Part shown: one piece after another, positions 26,976 through 31,157 of the stretch
How the letters are laid out: the number at the start of each line of letters is the position of its first letter
How positions within the stretch are numbered: position 1 is the stretch's first letter
Assembly (NCBI GenBank): GCA_947510165.1
Contig: CANNSB010000004.1
Coordinates: 23,318-87,317 of the forward strand
Direction: 5' to 3'
Length of the DNA: 64,000 nt
DNA from: an uncultured Clostridia bacterium
GTDB lineage: Bacteria > Bacillota > Clostridia > Oscillospirales > Ruminococcaceae
Made by a program: the position numbers and the translations under genes
Notes under the pieces: model-generated
What the model saw: only the letters and a program-made list of their open reading frames with translations
Database searches by the model: none
Told to the model about the DNA's origin: nothing

Positions 26976-27440
26976 TCAATACTGCTTGCAAATATGTTCA
27001 GGATAGATTCCCGTTAGATTATTCTCTATCTTATCACCATCTAAATTAGTATTCTTTTTTATATAATCCTCTAGTTTACTATTATTTTCTAAAAGGCAAT
27101 ATGAGTGAGGTGCGACAAATTTAGGAACGTTGTTGCGTAAATCTAATAAAGTAATAGGCTCTATTTTTTGAAAACCTACTATCTCTGCACCATATCTATA
27201 TGATGAATAATTATTAATTCTTTTAATGATATGGGGTTCGTTTAAATATTGATTTTTCCAATCTGCTAAATTATGGATTTCACCGAAGTATAGAACGGCA
27301 CATATTGCTTTAACAGGACTGCTTATGTACATATATGCTTGCGTACAATCTTTAGGAAATGTTCTTCTATATCCTATTAATTTTATTTGGTTAGATATTT
27401 TATCATATATATCTGGCTAAAAACTCATAAGAGGGGTCAT
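26976..27440 (-). pseudogene. ASCH-domain protein with in-frame TAG at codon 8
   Basis: GGAG RBS, ATG 27440, MTPLMSF-TAG(27417-27419)-PDIYDKISNQIKLIGYRRTFPKD..YMYISSPVKAICAVLYF in one frame. The ASCH-like pattern spans the stop. Confidence 0.55.
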
Positions 27441-27453
27441 ATAAAACTCCTTT

Positions 27454-27924
27454 CTACTTTAATATTGGCTCTATGGCATCATCATTTCTGTTAAAATACA
27501 GTTCACTGAATCCGTTGCCACAGAAAATTTCTAGCATTTTATCTAAATGCCATAATGGTTCCTTTTTCTTAAGTTCTTCTAAAGGCATCCAATATACATC
27601 GCCTTCATCAGACGGTACAAGTCCTCCAGCGAATTTATTAGTTCTGTATAAGAAAACCATATATCTTGATCCATCAAATTCTATCCAGTCTTTAACACCA
27701 CAAAACTCTAAATCCGATATGGTGAGTCCTGTTTCTTCCTTAATTTCACGGATTGTAGAATCAAGAATGGATTCCTGTTTTTCAACATGACCACCCGGAA
27801 ATATAAGACCACCTGCTTTTTCTTCAACAAGAACATTTCCTTTATCGTCATAGACCATACACATATTGGTAAGAGTGACTATTGTTGTTCTGTTCAATTT
27901 ATGTAGTCCTCCTTTAATCTTCAA
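27454..27924 (-). CDS. Nudix hydrolase (MutT/8-oxo-dGTPase-like)
   Basis: Complete Nudix box GGHVEKQESILDSTIREIKEETGL (G-x5-E-x7-REUxEExGU). Confidence 0.85.
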   Translation of the reverse strand: MKIKGGLHKLNRTTIVTLTNMCMVYDDKGNVLVEEKAGGLIFPGGHVEKQESILDSTIREIKEETGLTISDLEFCGVKDWIEFDGSRYMVFLYRTNKFAGGLVPSDEGDVYWMPLEELKKKEPLWHLDKMLEIFCGNGFSELYFNRNDDAIEPILK

Positions 27925-28123
27925 TTGATTCTAAAATATCCTCAATTTTACAATTTAATGCAATGCAAACTTTCAAAAGTATATCTGTTGATATATTTGC
28001 ACCTTTACCTAGTTTAGCTATAGAAGCCGAACTAATGCCTGCGAGTTCTTGCAGGTCTTTTTTTTGCATTTCTTTGTCAATGAGAATCTTCCATAATTTG
28101 TTATAACTAATTCGCATTTGCAA
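27914..28123 (-). CDS. XRE-family helix-turn-helix protein (69 aa)
   Basis: KKDLQELAGISSASIAKLGKGANIS HTH pattern. AGGAGG RBS 6 nt upstream. Overlaps the Nudix start by 11 nt. Confidence 0.8.
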   Translation of the reverse strand: MQMRISYNKLWKILIDKEMQKKDLQELAGISSASIAKLGKGANISTDILLKVCIALNCKIEDILESIED

Positions 28124-28137
28124 CCTCCTGTATACCT

Positions 28138-29775
28138 CTAATTAGTTTCGTTCCATGCACGACCAAATAATTCGCCGCCATTTGGTGAAAGTCTTAATAT
28201 TTCTGTTTTATGCATTAGCTCTTGAGCATTTTTAGTATATGAACCTTCTTTATCTAAGGAAATGAATATTTGTTTATTGCTTTCGCTGTATATTTCCAAT
28301 ATTTTTTCAAGAGCCTTGTCTTCAATTTGTTTTAAAAGTATTGAGTCATGTACTAATACGGGTAAATTAGTCATTTGCAATGCGGCAATATCAAAAACAA
28401 TAAGTCCTTTATATTGCGATCCCGTACCACTATCATTAGGTGTGAAAAAATTATAGTGATCTGCATCAGTTATTGTTAATGTTGGTGCAGTCTTTTTCCC
28501 TTCGTATATGGTATCATTTAGTGTCTTCATTATTGAATTTATTTCTTCTTGTGTATTTGCAATAACCTCAATAACCAAAGCATCCAAACTGGCTTGTAAC
28601 CTTTTGTATCTGTCATGTAATTCGGATGTTTTTACATAATTACTATTAGAATCTATTAGTATTTGCAATTCTTTTTTTACAGTTGCATATCTATCTAAAA
28701 TTGCTTGTGAAACGTTAGGGATATCATTAATTTTAGAAATCTCTGATTCAATGGCTGTTATCTGTGAGGAAACTAAATCAATCATTGCCTGCAAACTAAC
28801 CGAGCTTTCTTTTAATTCTTTTTTTAACACATTGGTAAGTGTTTTATGAAAATGTTCTATATTTTCAAGATGTTCGATATTTACCTCTGGAAAAAATTCT
28901 ATTAATGCTTCGTAATTTTTTTGGATAGAATGCTTAGAATACTCATGATCTGCTTGAGATGTTTTGCGTTGCATTTCTAGGCGAGTTCTTTGGCGTTTAA
29001 AAGAAGATAATTGATGTCTTAAGTCTGCTAATTTTTGAGCCTTGATAGAATCCATATCAAGGAGTCCTTGATTACTCTTTCTCGCAAGTTCAGTTGATTC
29101 TTCTTCAAGTTCAATTATTCTTTTATCATTTTCTTTATAAGCTTTTTGTGTTGTAACAGCTTGAACAAATTTGTATTTTTGCGCCTTTTTAAAGGTACTT
29201 TCTTCATCCTTTGCAATGGTTGTTAATTTTTCTTGCTCTTCGATAGTAGAATACTTATCACATAATTTTATAAGTCCCTTGATTCCACCTTTTTCAGATT
29301 CTTGTGTTGCTTGTTTTAATGGATGCTTTTCGTCAAGAGTTTCCCTTCCATATACTCTAAAAAAACGTGCTACAGCACCACGAAGAGTTAATCCCGGAAG
29401 ACTTAAGCCATATTTTTCCGAGAGCAGTGCCATATACTTATCATTTGATACCGGTTGGATAACTTTATAGTCCTCATTACAAATATTAACTAACGTATAG
29501 TCCCCTGTAGACCTAGAGAAATAGAATGGCTCGTTATTAAATATAAATTTAAATTCTATTATGTGTACGCCAACGTTCATCTGCGTATCAACTGACTTTA
29601 AAATATAGTCGTCACCACCGAAAACAAAATCTAAAATCATTAGAAATGTTGATTTTCCAATAGAGTTTGAACCAGACTTACTACCAATTAGAGTATTAAG
29701 TCCTGCATTAAAAACAATTGGTGGCCTTATCTCTCCGTTTTCGATAAATTTATCACAACGTATTTCTTTCAACAT
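28138..29775 (-). CDS. ABC-3C/Lamassu LmuB-like ABC/SMC-type ATPase with coiled-coil insert (DUF2326/YydD-like)
   Basis: N-terminal GLNTLIGSKSGSNSIGKSTFLMILDFVFG P-loop, about 250 aa heptad-rich middle, C-terminal VLVHDS Walker B-like motif. Confidence 0.65.
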   Translation of the reverse strand: MLKEIRCDKFIENGEIRPPIVFNAGLNTLIGSKSGSNSIGKSTFLMILDFVFGGDDYILKSVDTQMNVGVHIIEFKFIFNNEPFYFSRSTGDYTLVNICNEDYKVIQPVSNDKYMALLSEKYGLSLPGLTLRGAVARFFRVYGRETLDEKHPLKQATQESEKGGIKGLIKLCDKYSTIEEQEKLTTIAKDEESTFKKAQKYKFVQAVTTQKAYKENDKRIIELEEESTELARKSNQGLLDMDSIKAQKLADLRHQLSSFKRQRTRLEMQRKTSQADHEYSKHSIQKNYEALIEFFPEVNIEHLENIEHFHKTLTNVLKKELKESSVSLQAMIDLVSSQITAIESEISKINDIPNVSQAILDRYATVKKELQILIDSNSNYVKTSELHDRYKRLQASLDALVIEVIANTQEEINSIMKTLNDTIYEGKKTAPTLTITDADHYNFFTPNDSGTGSQYKGLIVFDIAALQMTNLPVLVHDSILLKQIEDKALEKILEIYSESNKQIFISLDKEGSYTKNAQELMHKTEILRLSPNGGELFGRAWNETN

Positions 29776-29989
29776 AGTGAATTTCCTCCGTTTCTAGAAG
29801 TTCTATTTTTCCTAGGATATATAAGCAGTCCAAAATTTCGATATATTCTTGAATATTTGATACTTTAGATTTAACTTTTTTGTAGAGTTCTTGAGGTGTT
29901 AAATCCTCATTTTTTAAAGTTGTTAATACAATAGGAAATTTTGCCAATACACTTTCTTTGTACGAAGTTACTTTATTAGGAAATTTCAT
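29753..29989 (-). CDS. ABC-3C middle component / LmuC-like small helical protein
   Basis: 78 aa from ATG 29989 (GAGGTG RBS). Overlaps both neighbours. Size and position are typical of the middle gene. Confidence 0.5.
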   Translation of the reverse strand: MKFPNKVTSYKESVLAKFPIVLTTLKNEDLTPQELYKKVKSKVSNIQEYIEILDCLYILGKIELLETEEIHYVERNTL

Positions 29990-31157
29990 AAAACACCTCA
30001 CAATTCTGAATGAAGAACGAAACAATAATGTGACTAGCGGTCGAGTATTGTGTTCCCATTCCTGTATTTTGGATTATCCAATTAGATAATAGGTTTACTA
30101 TCTCATCTTGAGATTTATTTTGTCTATCCATTTCTAAAAAAGCAGCTCTTATTTCGGTAGCAATAAGTTGAAATGAAGAAATCTGAGAAAAGGTATCCTC
30201 AATAAAGCGATAATATGTAAGAACTTCATTAGTGATAGAGTGCTTTAAAAGAGGGTTTTCTAAAGAAATTTTTTTATAAATTGTTAATGCATCCATGGAT
30301 AATGAGCAGGAACTACCAGTACCGTTATATTGCGACAATGCATTTATTACATCGGTGATTTCTTCCTCAAGATTAAGTGTAGTTAATTTTTGCTGAAGTT
30401 GATAAGCACTAACATATTTCTGTTTTAATTTTGTTAGCTCTATATAGTCACCAAGTTCTGGAACTATTTCATAATTGAGAGCACAATCTTCGCAAAGGGT
30501 CATTTTGTTTTCGTTTGAATTGACTCTTTTAGGTGGATTTATCGCATTGGTGAAAGTTGTTACATCTGAGGAAGATAAATTATCTGGAAATATTTTAATG
30601 ACTGAATATTTTTTAATGCTTTGACCTTTTATATTTTTAACCAAAGGAGCATGGCAAAGTGGACACTCATTATTTACTTCTGATAATAAAGGTATATCAT
30701 CATATTCAACTGGCGATTCTATAGATTTATTTTGTCTATTTATCACATATAAAAAACTACGAGCAAGAAATTCGCCAATATTTCCTTTTTGGTATATAGT
30801 GCTTAAATTTATACGTGTATTATCAGAAACAGTATTATCAGAATCCATAATCGCAATAAGCCGTTCACATGAATCAGCAAATGAATGTGGGTTCAACTTA
30901 GGTACAACAATAGTTTCAAAATTTTCAACAGTCTTTGCAATGACTTCTGTTCTTGTAGAGGCTGTTTTTATTGCATCATGAATTTCGGTTTTACGATTTC
31001 TGAGATTAGATATCATTTTTGCATCTACATCAACAGTGACGGAGTTTTGTGTTGAAATAGTTTCAAGCAGTAAACGTCCAGCTGATTCATTTTTATTATC
31101 TTTTGCAAATCCATTTTGCATAGTCATCATATAAGACGAAATATTGTAATCACTCAT
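29976..31157 (-). CDS. ABC-3C third component / LmuA-like protein: unknown N-terminal domain, Cys4 ribbon, conserved C-terminal domain
   Basis: First gene of the trio. CPLCHAPL...LCEDCALNY. C-terminus ...IIVSFFIQNCEVFYEIS resembles the ABC-3C C-terminal-domain ending. No nuclease or hydrolase motif seen. Confidence 0.5.
   Translation of the reverse strand: MSDYNISSYMMTMQNGFAKDNKNESAGRLLLETISTQNSVTVDVDAKMISNLRNRKTEIHDAIKTASTRTEVIAKTVENFETIVVPKLNPHSFADSCERLIAIMDSDNTVSDNTRINLSTIYQKGNIGEFLARSFLYVINRQNKSIESPVEYDDIPLLSEVNNECPLCHAPLVKNIKGQSIKKYSVIKIFPDNLSSSDVTTFTNAINPPKRVNSNENKMTLCEDCALNYEIVPELGDYIELTKLKQKYVSAYQLQQKLTTLNLEEEITDVINALSQYNGTGSSCSLSMDALTIYKKISLENPLLKHSITNEVLTYYRFIEDTFSQISSFQLIATEIRAAFLEMDRQNKSQDEIVNLLSNWIIQNTGMGTQYSTASHIIVSFFIQNCEVFYEIS

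What the first reader, a model, noticed from the sequence alone, without database searches (positions are those of the whole stretch)
26976..31157. Six translationally coupled genes: ABC-3C/Lamassu-like trio fused operonically to XRE-HTH, Nudix and ASCH
On the minus strand six genes run head to tail with no room for internal promoters. The 393-aa and 78-aa genes overlap by 14 nt. The 78-aa and 545-aa genes overlap by 23 nt. The 545-aa gene is followed after 14 nt (containing AGGAGG) by the HTH gene. HTH and Nudix overlap by 11 nt. Nudix is followed after 13 nt (GGAG) by ASCH. The first three genes match the order and sizes of ABC-three-component / Lamassu-family systems: a variable-N-terminus protein, a small middle protein, and a coiled-coil ABC/SMC-like ATPase. 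I know of no described variant in which that trio is co-transcribed with a Nudix hydrolase (perfect Nudix box) and an ASCH domain, a fold linked to RNA or modified-base binding. A nucleotide-hydrolysing or modified-nucleotide-sensing accessory arm on an SMC-like sensor would be a new configuration. It sits in a prophage cargo arm next to an R-M system, which is a typical defence-island context.
Basis: partly seen in the sequence, partly recalled or inferred. Interest (0 to 1): 0.75.

Follow-up and report, generated by a model that had tools for sequence, protein, structure and literature searches.

The report
Lamassu-type trio abutting a restriction cassette
The gene string is two separable phage-defence modules sitting head to tail at the end of a prophage, a known Lamassu/ABC-3C trio and a cytosine-methylation restriction cassette with its own HTH, Nudix and ASCH genes, and not a new six-gene Lamassu variant.

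Summary
The ORFs exist, but only five are intact. The "ASCH" gene has an in-frame TAG at codon 8 (W8*). Homologues also place the Nudix start at TTG 27897, so HTH and Nudix do not overlap. The first three genes are a textbook ABC-3C/Lamassu-family trio (Pfam CTD11, MC7, DUF2326; PADLOC LmuB).

Nudix and ASCH are not partners of that trio. None of 80 representative genomes with a homologous ATPase has a Nudix within 10 kb. The same Nudix clade instead recurs as HTH–Nudix–type II REase plus m5C methyltransferase (often with ASCH), mostly behind a different upstream system (LmuA-like protein plus PDC-S53 helicase). HTH–ASCH–M–R also exists with no upstream system. DNA homology breaks at gene borders, so the genes shuffle as separate modules.

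The small XRE HTH is the real recurring feature. It directly follows the ATPase in about 55 of 86 loci, and its presence goes with a same-strand R-M, BREX or Druantia system downstream. That Lamassu–HTH–restriction layout, and Nudix/ASCH as accessories of m5C R-M, are the interesting residue. Co-transcription is untested.

The parts
31158..31449 (-). Intergenic region upstream of the trio, holding candidate promoters (TTGCCA-16-CATAAT at 31197-31170; TGATATAAT at 31290-31282) and a GGAGG RBS before the ATG at 31157
   Evidence: These are consensus matches only; no transcript data.
29976..31157 (-). ABC-3C/Lamassu effector (LmuA-type), 393 aa. It has an N-terminal helical domain, a central HNH-like zinc-finger domain (residues ~155-235; the catalytic His position is Lys) and a C-terminal CTD11 docking domain
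   Evidence: Pfam CTD11 3e-30. AF2 model pLDDT 91. Foldseek top hits are the CBASS Cap5 HNH domain, prob 1.0 over ~120 columns. Motif conservation.
29753..29989 (-). ABC-3C middle component (LmuC-type), 78 aa. It overlaps the effector gene by 14 nt and the ATPase gene by 23 nt
   Evidence: Pfam MC7 3e-26; coordinates.
28138..29775 (-). SMC/Rad50-like ABC ATPase (LmuB-type), 545 aa. It has Walker A GSNSIGKST, a coiled-coil insert at ~165-400 and Walker B VLVHDS
   Evidence: Pfam DUF2326 3e-20. PADLOC LmuB 1e-7 over residues 20-508, and JetC coiled-coil hit. More than 1100 homologues; invariant columns.
27914..28117 (-). Small XRE-family HTH (67 aa from ATG 28117; 69 aa from TTG 28123). This is the hinge gene between the trio and the restriction cassette
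   Evidence: Pfam HTH_26 8e-18. NCBIfam VanU-like 1e-22, below cutoff. PDB 3tyr 6e-20. Found directly downstream of the ATPase in ~55 of 86 loci.
27454..27897 (-). MutT-type Nudix hydrolase, 147 aa (TTG start with AGGAGG RBS), with a canonical Nudix box
   Evidence: Pfam NUDIX 2e-16. PADLOC PDC-S07 8e-9. Nudix-box regex. Homologue alignment. Neighbourhoods.
26976..27440 (-). ASCH-fold gene inactivated by a W8* nonsense codon (TAG at 27417-27419). The residual ORF 26976-27332 would give an N-terminally truncated 118-aa product
   Evidence: Trp in all homologues. AF2 pLDDT 85 and Foldseek ZmASCH E 4e-8, TM ~0.6. No Pfam hit.
25343..26853 (-). Type II restriction endonuclease in two ORFs (244 aa, 26119-26853; 258 aa, 25343-26119), joined by a TAATG overlap with an AGGAG RBS
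   Evidence: The two ORFs match PADLOC REase_II profile positions 22-257 and 265-526 of 527 (7e-19 and 1e-24). Junction sequence.
23239..25259 (+). Two tandem C5-cytosine DNA methyltransferases (357 aa and 315 aa), convergent with the REase operon
   Evidence: Pfam DNA_methylase 1e-88. The two match the two halves of a fused 703-aa PADLOC MTase_II profile.
21437..22801 (+). Host rlmD-like TRAM/U5 RNA methyltransferase gene. It marks the chromosome side of the prophage junction; the defence island starts just after it
   Evidence: Pfam hits. The same flanking gene occurs in L093, L097 and L104. GC rises from ~0.28 to 0.35-0.40 beyond the island. Phage structural genes lie at 43.8-63.5 kb.

Best explanation
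The 22.9-31.4 kb end of this prophage is a defence-cargo hotspot. It holds at least two evolutionarily separable modules that lie head to tail on the minus strand.

**Module 1** is a canonical Lamassu-family ABC-3C trio: an effector with an HNH-like domain plus CTD11, the MC7 middle component, and a DUF2326 SMC-like ATPase. By analogy with solved Lamassu systems, the ATPase dimer and middle component hold the effector inactive until foreign DNA structures are sensed. The effector is then released and kills or arrests the cell. This mechanism is inferred.

**Module 2** is a type II restriction-modification cassette in the classic layout of a C gene followed by the REase, with convergent methyltransferases. 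It runs: small XRE HTH, Nudix, ASCH, two-ORF REase, then two convergent m5C methyltransferases.
- The HTH most likely acts as a controller-type transcription factor gating the downstream restriction operon (inferred).
- The Nudix most likely removes a modified pyrimidine dNTP such as 5-methyl-dCTP from the pool (inferred from the context and from E. coli NudG/MutT activities).
- ASCH is most likely a modified-base or nucleic-acid-binding accessory of the m5C methyltransferase. In this window it is inactivated by a nonsense codon.

The tight spacing allows read-through transcription. The modules are nevertheless exchanged independently, so there is no evidence that Nudix or ASCH work with the SMC-like sensor.
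For: **The trio is ABC-3C.** Pfam and PADLOC profile hits are. ABC-3C is placed in the Lamassu superfamily, and the mechanism is described, in PMC10586767 and bioRxiv 10.1101/2025.03.14.643221.

**Nudix and ASCH are not linked to the trio.**
- tblastn and a Nudix-box scan of 86 loci found Nudix only in L001, L002 and L006. ASCH was found only in L001-L005.
- Nudix homologues at 68-79% identity sit in HTH_26-Nudix-REase (SinI, MspI) with a convergent m5C MTase. The upstream neighbour there is an LmuA-like protein plus the PDC-S53 helicase.
- All 10 IMG/VR loci with a Nudix of at least 54% identity and at least 2.5 kb of sequence beyond the Nudix gene have an m5C MTase within 5 kb. Eight have ASCH and none has ABC-3C. 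Four further loci of that clade end within 2.4 kb of the Nudix; one of them has m5C MTases on its other flank.
- HTH-ASCH-M-R occurs with no upstream system in L087-L092.
- L093 and L097 carry Nudix at 89-92% and ASCH at 79% identity behind a trio whose ATPase is only 35% identical.
- blastn homology blocks end at gene borders: 28111-28129, 27895-27908, 27447 and 26974.

**HTH and restriction systems.**
- Of 45 non-redundant HTH-positive loci, 37 have the next gene on the same strand.
- About 29-32 of these next genes are R-M type I/II/III, BREX or Druantia components.
- At most 6 of 31 HTH-less loci show this. Fisher p is about 1e-4 to 2e-5, not corrected for phylogeny.

**Other points.** The ASCH fold is supported, and the nonsense codon. 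NudG and MutT hydrolyse 5-methyl-dCTP (PMC3744803, PMC5158307). ASCH/EVE association with R-M systems and XRE-ASCH fusions are described in PMC7641849.
Against: - HTH identity tracks the upstream ATPase (Spearman 0.46). It averages 85% in pairs with ATPase identity of at least 60% even when the downstream gene is unrelated.
- The ATPase-HTH gap (-7 to +33 nt) is usually tighter than the gap from HTH to the next gene. The HTH may therefore belong to the upstream module instead.
- No C-box-like operator was found.
- No characterised C protein appears among PDB sequence matches.
- No terminator separates the trio from the HTH, so all genes may share one transcript.
- Two different trio lineages sit next to the same Nudix-ASCH cassette. 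That could also reflect some selected benefit of the combination.
- The Nudix substrate and the ASCH ligand are untested.
Confidence: 0.78

Rival explanations
1. One reading: a six-gene Lamassu variant in which HTH, Nudix and ASCH form a nucleotide-hydrolysing or modified-base-sensing accessory arm of the SMC-like sensor.
For: The genes are packed tightly on one strand with RBSs and no terminator-like site between them. The arrangement trio-HTH-Nudix(-ASCH) is found behind two divergent trio lineages (window/L006 and L093/L097).
Against: - Nudix is absent from all 80 representative ATPase-homologue genomes.
- Nudix and ASCH recur without ABC-3C, next to m5C R-M genes.
- The Nudix gene is dropped in L003 and ASCH is dropped in L006, with the trio unchanged.
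- ASCH is a pseudogene in the window and in the 10 contigs that carry this allele.
Confidence: 0.05
2. The HTH is the fourth gene of the ABC-3C operon: an autoregulator or safety brake for a toxic abortive-infection module. On this view it is not the controller of the restriction cassette, and restriction systems simply insert downstream of this four-gene unit.
For: - HTH-ATPase spacing is -7 to +33 nt in most loci.
- HTH identity co-varies with ATPase identity while the downstream cargo is swapped.
- Homology blocks shared with L007 and L008 cover the trio plus HTH and end at the HTH stop.
- Six of the 45 HTH-positive loci (L025, L028, L034, L080, L081, L085) have the next gene on the opposite strand.
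- The same HTH also closes the LmuA-like/PDC-S53 module.
Against: - HTH-ASCH-M-R stands alone behind a divergent intergenic region in L087-L092.
- A second HTH_26 paralogue precedes the methyltransferase in L088, L104 and L109.
- HTH presence is strongly tied to a same-strand restriction-type operon downstream.
- 31 of 86 trios lack it.
Confidence: 0.3
3. Functional two-tier coupling: the Lamassu-type sensor and the adjacent restriction system cooperate. For example, DNA ends or stalled restriction complexes could feed the SMC-like sensor as a back-up abortive response, with the HTH coordinating both tiers.
For: The recurrent same-strand order ABC-3C, HTH, then R-M/BREX/Druantia appears in about 30 of 45 HTH-positive loci from many genera. 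PrrC, an ABC-ATPase effector embedded in type I R-M, is listed among ABC-ATPase defence systems and described as almost exclusively embedded in type I R-M in bioRxiv 10.1101/2024.01.29.577857.
Against: - Defence genes cluster for reasons unrelated to function.
- The downstream systems are mechanistically heterogeneous.
- 31 trios have no HTH, and most of those have no restriction system.
- There is no experimental evidence.
- The loci sampled are not phylogenetically independent.
Confidence: 0.15

Closest known systems
Lamassu superfamily / ABC-three-component (ABC-3C) systems (LmuA-LmuC-LmuB; DdmABC; Pfam CTD/MC families; PADLOC candidate PDC-M68)
   Same: The gene order is effector, small middle component, SMC-like ABC ATPase, with overlapping genes. 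The effector has a variable N-terminal domain plus a C-terminal docking domain (CTD11), followed by MC7 and a DUF2326/LmuB-like ATPase. The Walker B motif lacks the catalytic Glu (VLVHDS), as noted for LmuB.
   Different: The effector domain is an HNH-like (Cap5-like) fold whose canonical catalytic His is Lys here and is variable across the family. An extra ~150-aa helical N-domain is present. An XRE HTH gene follows the ATPase in most members of this clade. I could not find this reported in the papers held; Krishnan et al. 2020 could not be read.
C-protein-controlled type II R-M systems with a C-R operon and convergent M (Esp1396I-type layout; layout recalled from my own knowledge, references listed in PMC12707154)
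   Same: A small XRE HTH lies first, the REase lies downstream on the same strand, and the methyltransferases are convergent. Paralogous HTHs or HTH-fused methyltransferases occur on the M side in relatives.
   Different: One or two extra genes (Nudix, ASCH) are inserted between the HTH and the REase. No C-box was identified. The HTH is closest to VanU-type regulators, not to characterised C proteins. The same HTH family also precedes type I and type III R-M, BREX and Druantia genes.
E. coli NudG (Orf135) and MutT Nudix hydrolases
   Same: It is a MutT-type Nudix fold with a canonical Nudix box. It gives weak NCBIfam matches to the MutT, NudG and YtkD models. NudG prefers 5-methyl-dCTP, which fits the m5C context.
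   Different: It is encoded in a mobile R-M cassette and is not a housekeeping gene. All NCBIfam scores fall far below the equivalog cutoffs. The substrate is unknown.
ASCH/PUA-like domain proteins associated with R-M systems (Bell et al. 2020, PMC7641849); ZmASCH (PDB 5GUS)
   Same: The fold is ASCH (Foldseek prob 1.0, 25% identity to ZmASCH). It is a standalone protein next to R-M genes. The pairing with an XRE HTH mirrors the known HTH-ASCH fusions.
   Different: The family is small (12 clusters at 90% identity) and is missed by the Pfam ASCH model. It is specifically adjacent to C5-cytosine methyltransferases of type II systems in Firmicute prophages. The window copy is a pseudogene.

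Membership tests
ABC-3C / Lamassu family | SMC/Rad50-like ABC ATPase with a coiled-coil insert (LmuB-type) | tested here: met
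   Pfam DUF2326 3.4e-20. PADLOC LmuB 1.1e-7 over residues 20-508, and JetC coiled-coil hit at 165-397. Walker A and other invariant ABC motifs are conserved in 19 homologues.
ABC-3C / Lamassu family | Small middle component encoded between the effector and the ATPase | tested here: met
   Pfam MC7 3.1e-26 with full-length match. The overlaps are 14 nt and 23 nt.
ABC-3C / Lamassu family | Effector protein with a family-specific C-terminal docking domain and a variable N-terminal effector domain | tested here: met
   Pfam CTD11 3e-30 at residues 255-389. HNH-like central domain by AF2 plus Foldseek (Cap5, prob 1.0). The catalytic His is not conserved, so nuclease activity is uncertain.
ABC-3C / Lamassu family | Anti-phage or anti-plasmid abortive-infection activity | not testable with these tools
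   No experiment was possible. This DUF2326/MC7/CTD11 clade was not found in any experimental paper held.
Proposed six-gene Lamassu variant with a Nudix/ASCH arm | Conserved co-occurrence of Nudix and ASCH downstream of homologous trios | tested here: not met
   Nudix is in 0 of 80 representative genomes. It is present only in the window's own lineage and in one cassette-swap lineage.
Proposed six-gene Lamassu variant with a Nudix/ASCH arm | All six genes intact | tested here: not met
   The ASCH gene carries TAG at codon 8, where all homologues have Trp.
Proposed six-gene Lamassu variant with a Nudix/ASCH arm | A single transcript covering all six genes | not testable with these tools
   Only consensus scans were possible. 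There is no intergenic terminator, but an 11/12 promoter-like site lies inside the ATPase gene.
C-protein-controlled type II R-M | REase plus cognate methyltransferase(s) | tested here: met
   PADLOC REase_II hits both halves. Two C5 methyltransferases are present. The REase lies in two ORFs and its activity is untested.
C-protein-controlled type II R-M | Small HTH gene upstream of and co-oriented with the REase gene | tested here: met
   Seen in the window and in L006, L087-L106 and most of the IMG/VR loci L107-L124.
C-protein-controlled type II R-M | C-box operator, and sequence relationship to characterised C proteins | tested here: inconclusive
   No convincing palindrome lies upstream of the HTH or the M genes. 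The only PDB sequence match is 3tyr, 'transcriptional regulator'.
Nudix hydrolase (MutT-like) | Nudix box GX5EX7REUXEEXGU within a Nudix fold | tested here: met
   Pfam NUDIX 2.1e-16. Strict Nudix-box regex match. The box is invariant in 11 homologues.
ASCH domain | ASCH (PUA-like beta-barrel) fold | tested here: met
   AF2 model of the intact orthologue P0122 (pLDDT 85) matches ZmASCH 5gus/5y6b at E 4e-8, TM 0.59-0.63, and also the TRIP4 ASCH domain. The Pfam ASCH HMM gave no hit even at E<=10.

The most novel reading that the evidence does not exclude
A small XRE HTH gene forms a conserved hinge between an abortive-infection-type module (the ABC-3C/Lamassu trio, or an LmuA-like nuclease plus PDC-S53 helicase) and a restriction-type module (R-M types I-III, BREX, Druantia) on one strand. 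This could reflect real regulatory or mechanistic coupling of a DNA-sensing suicide system to a DNA-cleaving first line. In the prophage lineage, Nudix and ASCH would then be previously undescribed accessories that police modified cytosine nucleotides for m5C R-M systems.
Probability: 0.2. Interest if true: 0.7.

Novelty: new variant of a known kind. Interest (0 to 1): 0.4.

Why it matters
The headline claim, a Lamassu sensor with a nucleotide-hydrolysing arm, does not hold, so it should not be pursued as a new defence architecture. Two smaller points are worth keeping.

1. A whole clade of Lamassu-family trios (DUF2326/MC7/CTD11) is usually followed by a conserved XRE HTH and then a restriction-type system. 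This gives a concrete, testable case of how defence modules are wired together in islands.
2. A Nudix hydrolase and an ASCH protein recur as accessory genes of m5C type II R-M cassettes in Firmicute prophages. This suggests that R-M systems may manage the modified-nucleotide pool or read their own methyl mark.

I found neither point described in the literature available to me.

Tried and rejected
- **Megablast.** The 4.5-kb region gave no match against the phage and plasmid collections.
- **Krishnan et al. 2020.** This paper defined ABC-3C. It could not be read by DOI or by the PMC id I guessed for it. Whether it already notes the HTH linkage is therefore unknown.
- **Pfam and NCBIfam on the sixth ORF.** Neither gave a hit, even with the stop codon repaired. 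The fold was settled only by structure prediction.
- **Stop-codon reassignment** as an explanation for the in-frame TAG. Rejected, because TAG ends the ATPase and Nudix genes and homologues have Trp at that codon.
- **Promoter scan.** Uninformative in this AT-rich DNA: 43 sites were found against 55 expected.
- **Search for C-box-like palindromes.** Nothing convincing was found.
- **Effector profile against PDB sequences.** Nothing significant.
- **Structure job with locus-derived homologues.** It was redone with hits from the representative search.
- **Split REase as a frameshift pseudogene.** I considered this. The TAATG junction with an AGGAG RBS, and a two-ORF NgoBV-type REase in L093, argue for a genuine two-gene enzyme. 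This is unresolved.
- **Organism names for the exact proteins.** Not available.

Full report
**Observation**

ORF listing and direct reading of the sequence confirm a run of minus-strand genes from 31157 to 26976. The 393-aa and 78-aa genes overlap by 14 nt. The 78-aa and 545-aa genes overlap by 23 nt. An AGGAGG lies between the ATPase stop (28138-28140) and the HTH. Thirteen nucleotides with GGAG separate the Nudix stop from an ATG at 27440.

Two details are wrong.

First, the frame opened at 27440 reads MTPLMSF-TAG. All 11 homologous clusters have Trp at that codon and are 151-157 aa long, except one 136-aa cluster that ends early. The window copy is therefore a TGG->TAG nonsense allele. It leaves a 118-aa ORF (26976-27332) without an RBS. 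TAG also terminates the ATPase and Nudix genes, so recoding is not an explanation.

Second, homologues of the Nudix start MNR(K/T)T, and an AGGAGG lies 9 nt before TTG 27897. The gene is therefore 147 aa and is separated from the HTH by 16 nt; the two genes do not overlap. The HTH most likely starts at ATG 28117.

**What the genes are**

- The 393-aa protein carries Pfam CTD11 (3e-30).
- The 78-aa protein is MC7 (3e-26).
- The 545-aa protein is DUF2326 (3e-20) and matches PADLOC LmuB over nearly its full length.

CTD11 and MC7 are Pfam families defined for ABC-three-component systems. Those systems are placed in the Lamassu superfamily (PMC10586767).

An AlphaFold model of the effector (pLDDT 91) has a helical N-domain and a central domain whose best PDB matches are the HNH nuclease domain of CBASS Cap5 (prob 1.0 over about 120 columns). 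It ends in the helical CTD. The zinc-binding Cys residues and the HNH Asn are nearly invariant. The canonical catalytic His position is Lys in the window and is variable across 53 homologues, with His in about a dozen. Shorter family members of about 255-270 aa consist of only this domain plus the CTD.

- The HTH is Pfam HTH_26 (8e-18) and is VanU-like.
- The Nudix has a canonical box.
- The sixth family has no Pfam hit. A model of an intact orthologue (pLDDT 85) matches the Zymomonas ASCH protein at E 4e-8 and TM about 0.6.

Downstream lies a type II REase in two ORFs joined by TAATG, followed by two convergent C5-cytosine methyltransferases.

Positions 1 to about 22,900 are host chromosome (dnaX, hydEFG, an rlmD-like gene). 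Positions 33-64 kb encode replication, packaging, head, tail and lysis proteins of a siphovirus-like prophage. The island therefore sits at the prophage end.

**Does Nudix/ASCH belong to the trio?**

I collected 86 loci with ATPase homologues at 38-100% identity. Eighty are from one-genome-per-species contigs.

- A Nudix homologue or a strict Nudix box occurs only in L001 and L002 (the same element as the window) and L006 (92% ATPase identity).
- ASCH occurs only in L001-L005.
- L003-L005 (79% ATPase identity) lack Nudix but have ASCH followed by an m5C methyltransferase and an LlaMI/MvaI-type REase.
- L006 lacks ASCH and has an IceA-like REase and an m5C methyltransferase.

I then started from the other side.

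- ASCH homologues in Clostridium cochlearium and in metagenomes sit in HTH_26-ASCH-m5C MTase-REase units, with no ABC-3C and a divergent gene upstream.
- Nudix homologues at 68-79% identity sit in HTH_26-Nudix-REase (SinI or MspI) with a convergent m5C methyltransferase. An ASCH homologue often lies just upstream of that methyltransferase.
- These units lie behind a 277-aa LmuA-like protein and a 934-aa helicase that is PADLOC candidate PDC-S53.
- In IMG/VR, 14 loci carry a Nudix of at least 54% identity. Four of these end within 2.4 kb of the Nudix gene. All 10 of the others have an m5C methyltransferase within 5 kb, 8 have ASCH, and none has an ABC-3C.

L093, L094 and L097 do have an ABC-3C upstream. 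Its ATPase is only 35% identical to the window's, whereas the Nudix is 89-92% and the ASCH 79% identical.

blastn shows that homology blocks between the window and these loci start and stop at gene borders: 28111-28129, 27895-27908, 27447 and 26974. The genes are exchanged as cassettes. Nudix and ASCH follow m5C restriction-modification, not the SMC-like sensor.

**The HTH**

This is the one downstream gene that does recur. A homologue lies -7 to +87 nt after the ATPase stop, on the same strand, in 53 loci, plus two that overlap the stop.

- Among 45 non-redundant HTH-positive loci, the next gene of at least 100 aa is on the same strand in 37.
- It carries R-M (ResIII/HsdR, N6 methyltransferases, type II REases), BREX (BrxA) or Druantia (DruA) domains in about 29-32. 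The second gene shows the same picture.
- Among 31 HTH-less loci, only 9 have a same-strand neighbour. At most 6 show any restriction-type domain, even with two genes scanned per locus. Two of those six carry a different small HTH.
- The contrast is large: Fisher p is 1e-4 to 4e-6. The loci are not phylogenetically independent, so these p-values are only indicative.

On the other hand, HTH identity tracks ATPase identity (Spearman 0.46). It stays at about 85% in pairs with ATPase identity of at least 60% even when the downstream gene is unrelated. The HTH is also usually closer to the ATPase than to the next gene.

The HTH is therefore a hinge. It is inherited mostly with the upstream module, it is present mainly when a restriction-type operon follows, and it can head an R-M operon on its own. 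I favour a controller-type role for the downstream restriction genes. A prophage entering a naive host needs methylation before restriction, and the layout of C gene then REase with convergent methyltransferases is classical. I give the alternative, an autoregulator of the toxic upstream module, about 0.3.

**Mechanism**

Shown here: the domain identities, gene order, modular exchange and co-occurrence statistics.

Inferred:
1. The trio works like solved Lamassu systems. In these, LmuB and LmuC sequester the effector until DNA sensing releases it (bioRxiv 10.1101/2025.03.14.643221). Here the effector is an HNH-fold protein of uncertain catalytic competence.
2. The Nudix clears a modified pyrimidine dNTP. 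E. coli NudG prefers 5-methyl-dCTP, and MutT also has measurable activity on it (PMC3744803, PMC5158307). Possible consequences are less ectopic 5mC incorporation, fewer C-to-T mutations, or denying phages a protective nucleotide.
3. ASCH binds modified nucleic acid. This is in line with predictions for R-M-associated ASCH/EVE proteins and with the known XRE-ASCH fusions (PMC7641849).

**Novelty and verdict**

The trio is a new member of a known family. The proposed six-gene Lamassu variant is not supported.

What remains is a variant layout of known kinds:
- a Lamassu-family clade habitually followed by an XRE HTH and a restriction-type system;
- an m5C type II R-M cassette with Nudix and ASCH accessories.

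Searches of the held literature found no description of either. The founding ABC-3C paper could not be read.

Interest is moderate at 0.4. The coupling hypothesis has a probability of about 0.2, and would merit about 0.7 if true.

Noticed in passing
window 27417-27419 (minus strand): TGG->TAG nonsense codon at position 8 of the ASCH gene. The 118-aa truncated product is on record in 10 contigs, so the allele is established in this lineage.
   Followed up: yes
window 25343-26853 (minus strand); 23239-25259 (plus strand): The REase is two ORFs joined by TAATG with an AGGAG RBS. Together they match one 527-aa PADLOC REase_II profile. The two m5C methyltransferases match the two halves of a fused 703-aa MTase_II profile. 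This could be a heterodimeric or asymmetric-site system, or a split gene.
   Followed up: partly
L098-L104 and L107-L114 (for example L099:1143-4804): Related prophages carry a different two-gene module at the position of the trio. It consists of a 277-aa protein with an LmuA-like N-domain (PADLOC LmuA 3e-17) and a 934-aa SF1 helicase equal to PADLOC candidate PDC-S53. It is again followed by HTH_26-Nudix-REase with an m5C methyltransferase.
   Followed up: partly
L029:~11650-11900 and L031:~11680-11900: Two ABC-3C loci lack the HTH_26 gene. They have a 71-79-aa excisionase/MerR-like HTH in the same slot, followed by large same-strand genes. This suggests the slot, more than the particular family, is what is conserved.
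   Followed up: no
window 29976-31157, residues ~165-229 of the effector: HNH-like motif CPxC...Y.I.x.IFP...N.I.LC..C..Y. The canonical catalytic His position is Lys here and is variable in the family (His in about 12 of 53). The domain may be a DNA-binding module rather than an active nuclease in most members.
   Followed up: partly
window 28428-28479 (minus strand, inside the ATPase gene): The best sigma-70-like match of the region (TTAACA-18-TATAAT, 11/12) has its -10 overlapped by an inverted repeat, CACTATCATT-N11-AATTATAGTG. This is a possible internal promoter and operator for the HTH/restriction operon.
   Followed up: no
window 21437-22801 and ~22,800-23,240: The prophage end abuts an rlmD-like TRAM/U5 RNA methyltransferase gene. 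The same gene flanks the island in L093, L097 and L104, indicating a shared integration site. No integrase was seen at this end of the window.
   Followed up: partly
window 39257-42221 (plus strand): The prophage also encodes a ParB-domain DNA methyltransferase (412 aa) and a second DNA methyltransferase (577 aa) with no adjacent REase. These are probably anti-restriction orphan methylases.
   Followed up: no
L099-L103:8554-9979: Thoeris-like genes (ThsA_Macro; ThsB_TIR, faint hit) lie next to the HTH-Nudix-SinI/m5C cassette and a serine recombinase. This underlines that this prophage end is a multi-system defence hotspot.
   Followed up: no
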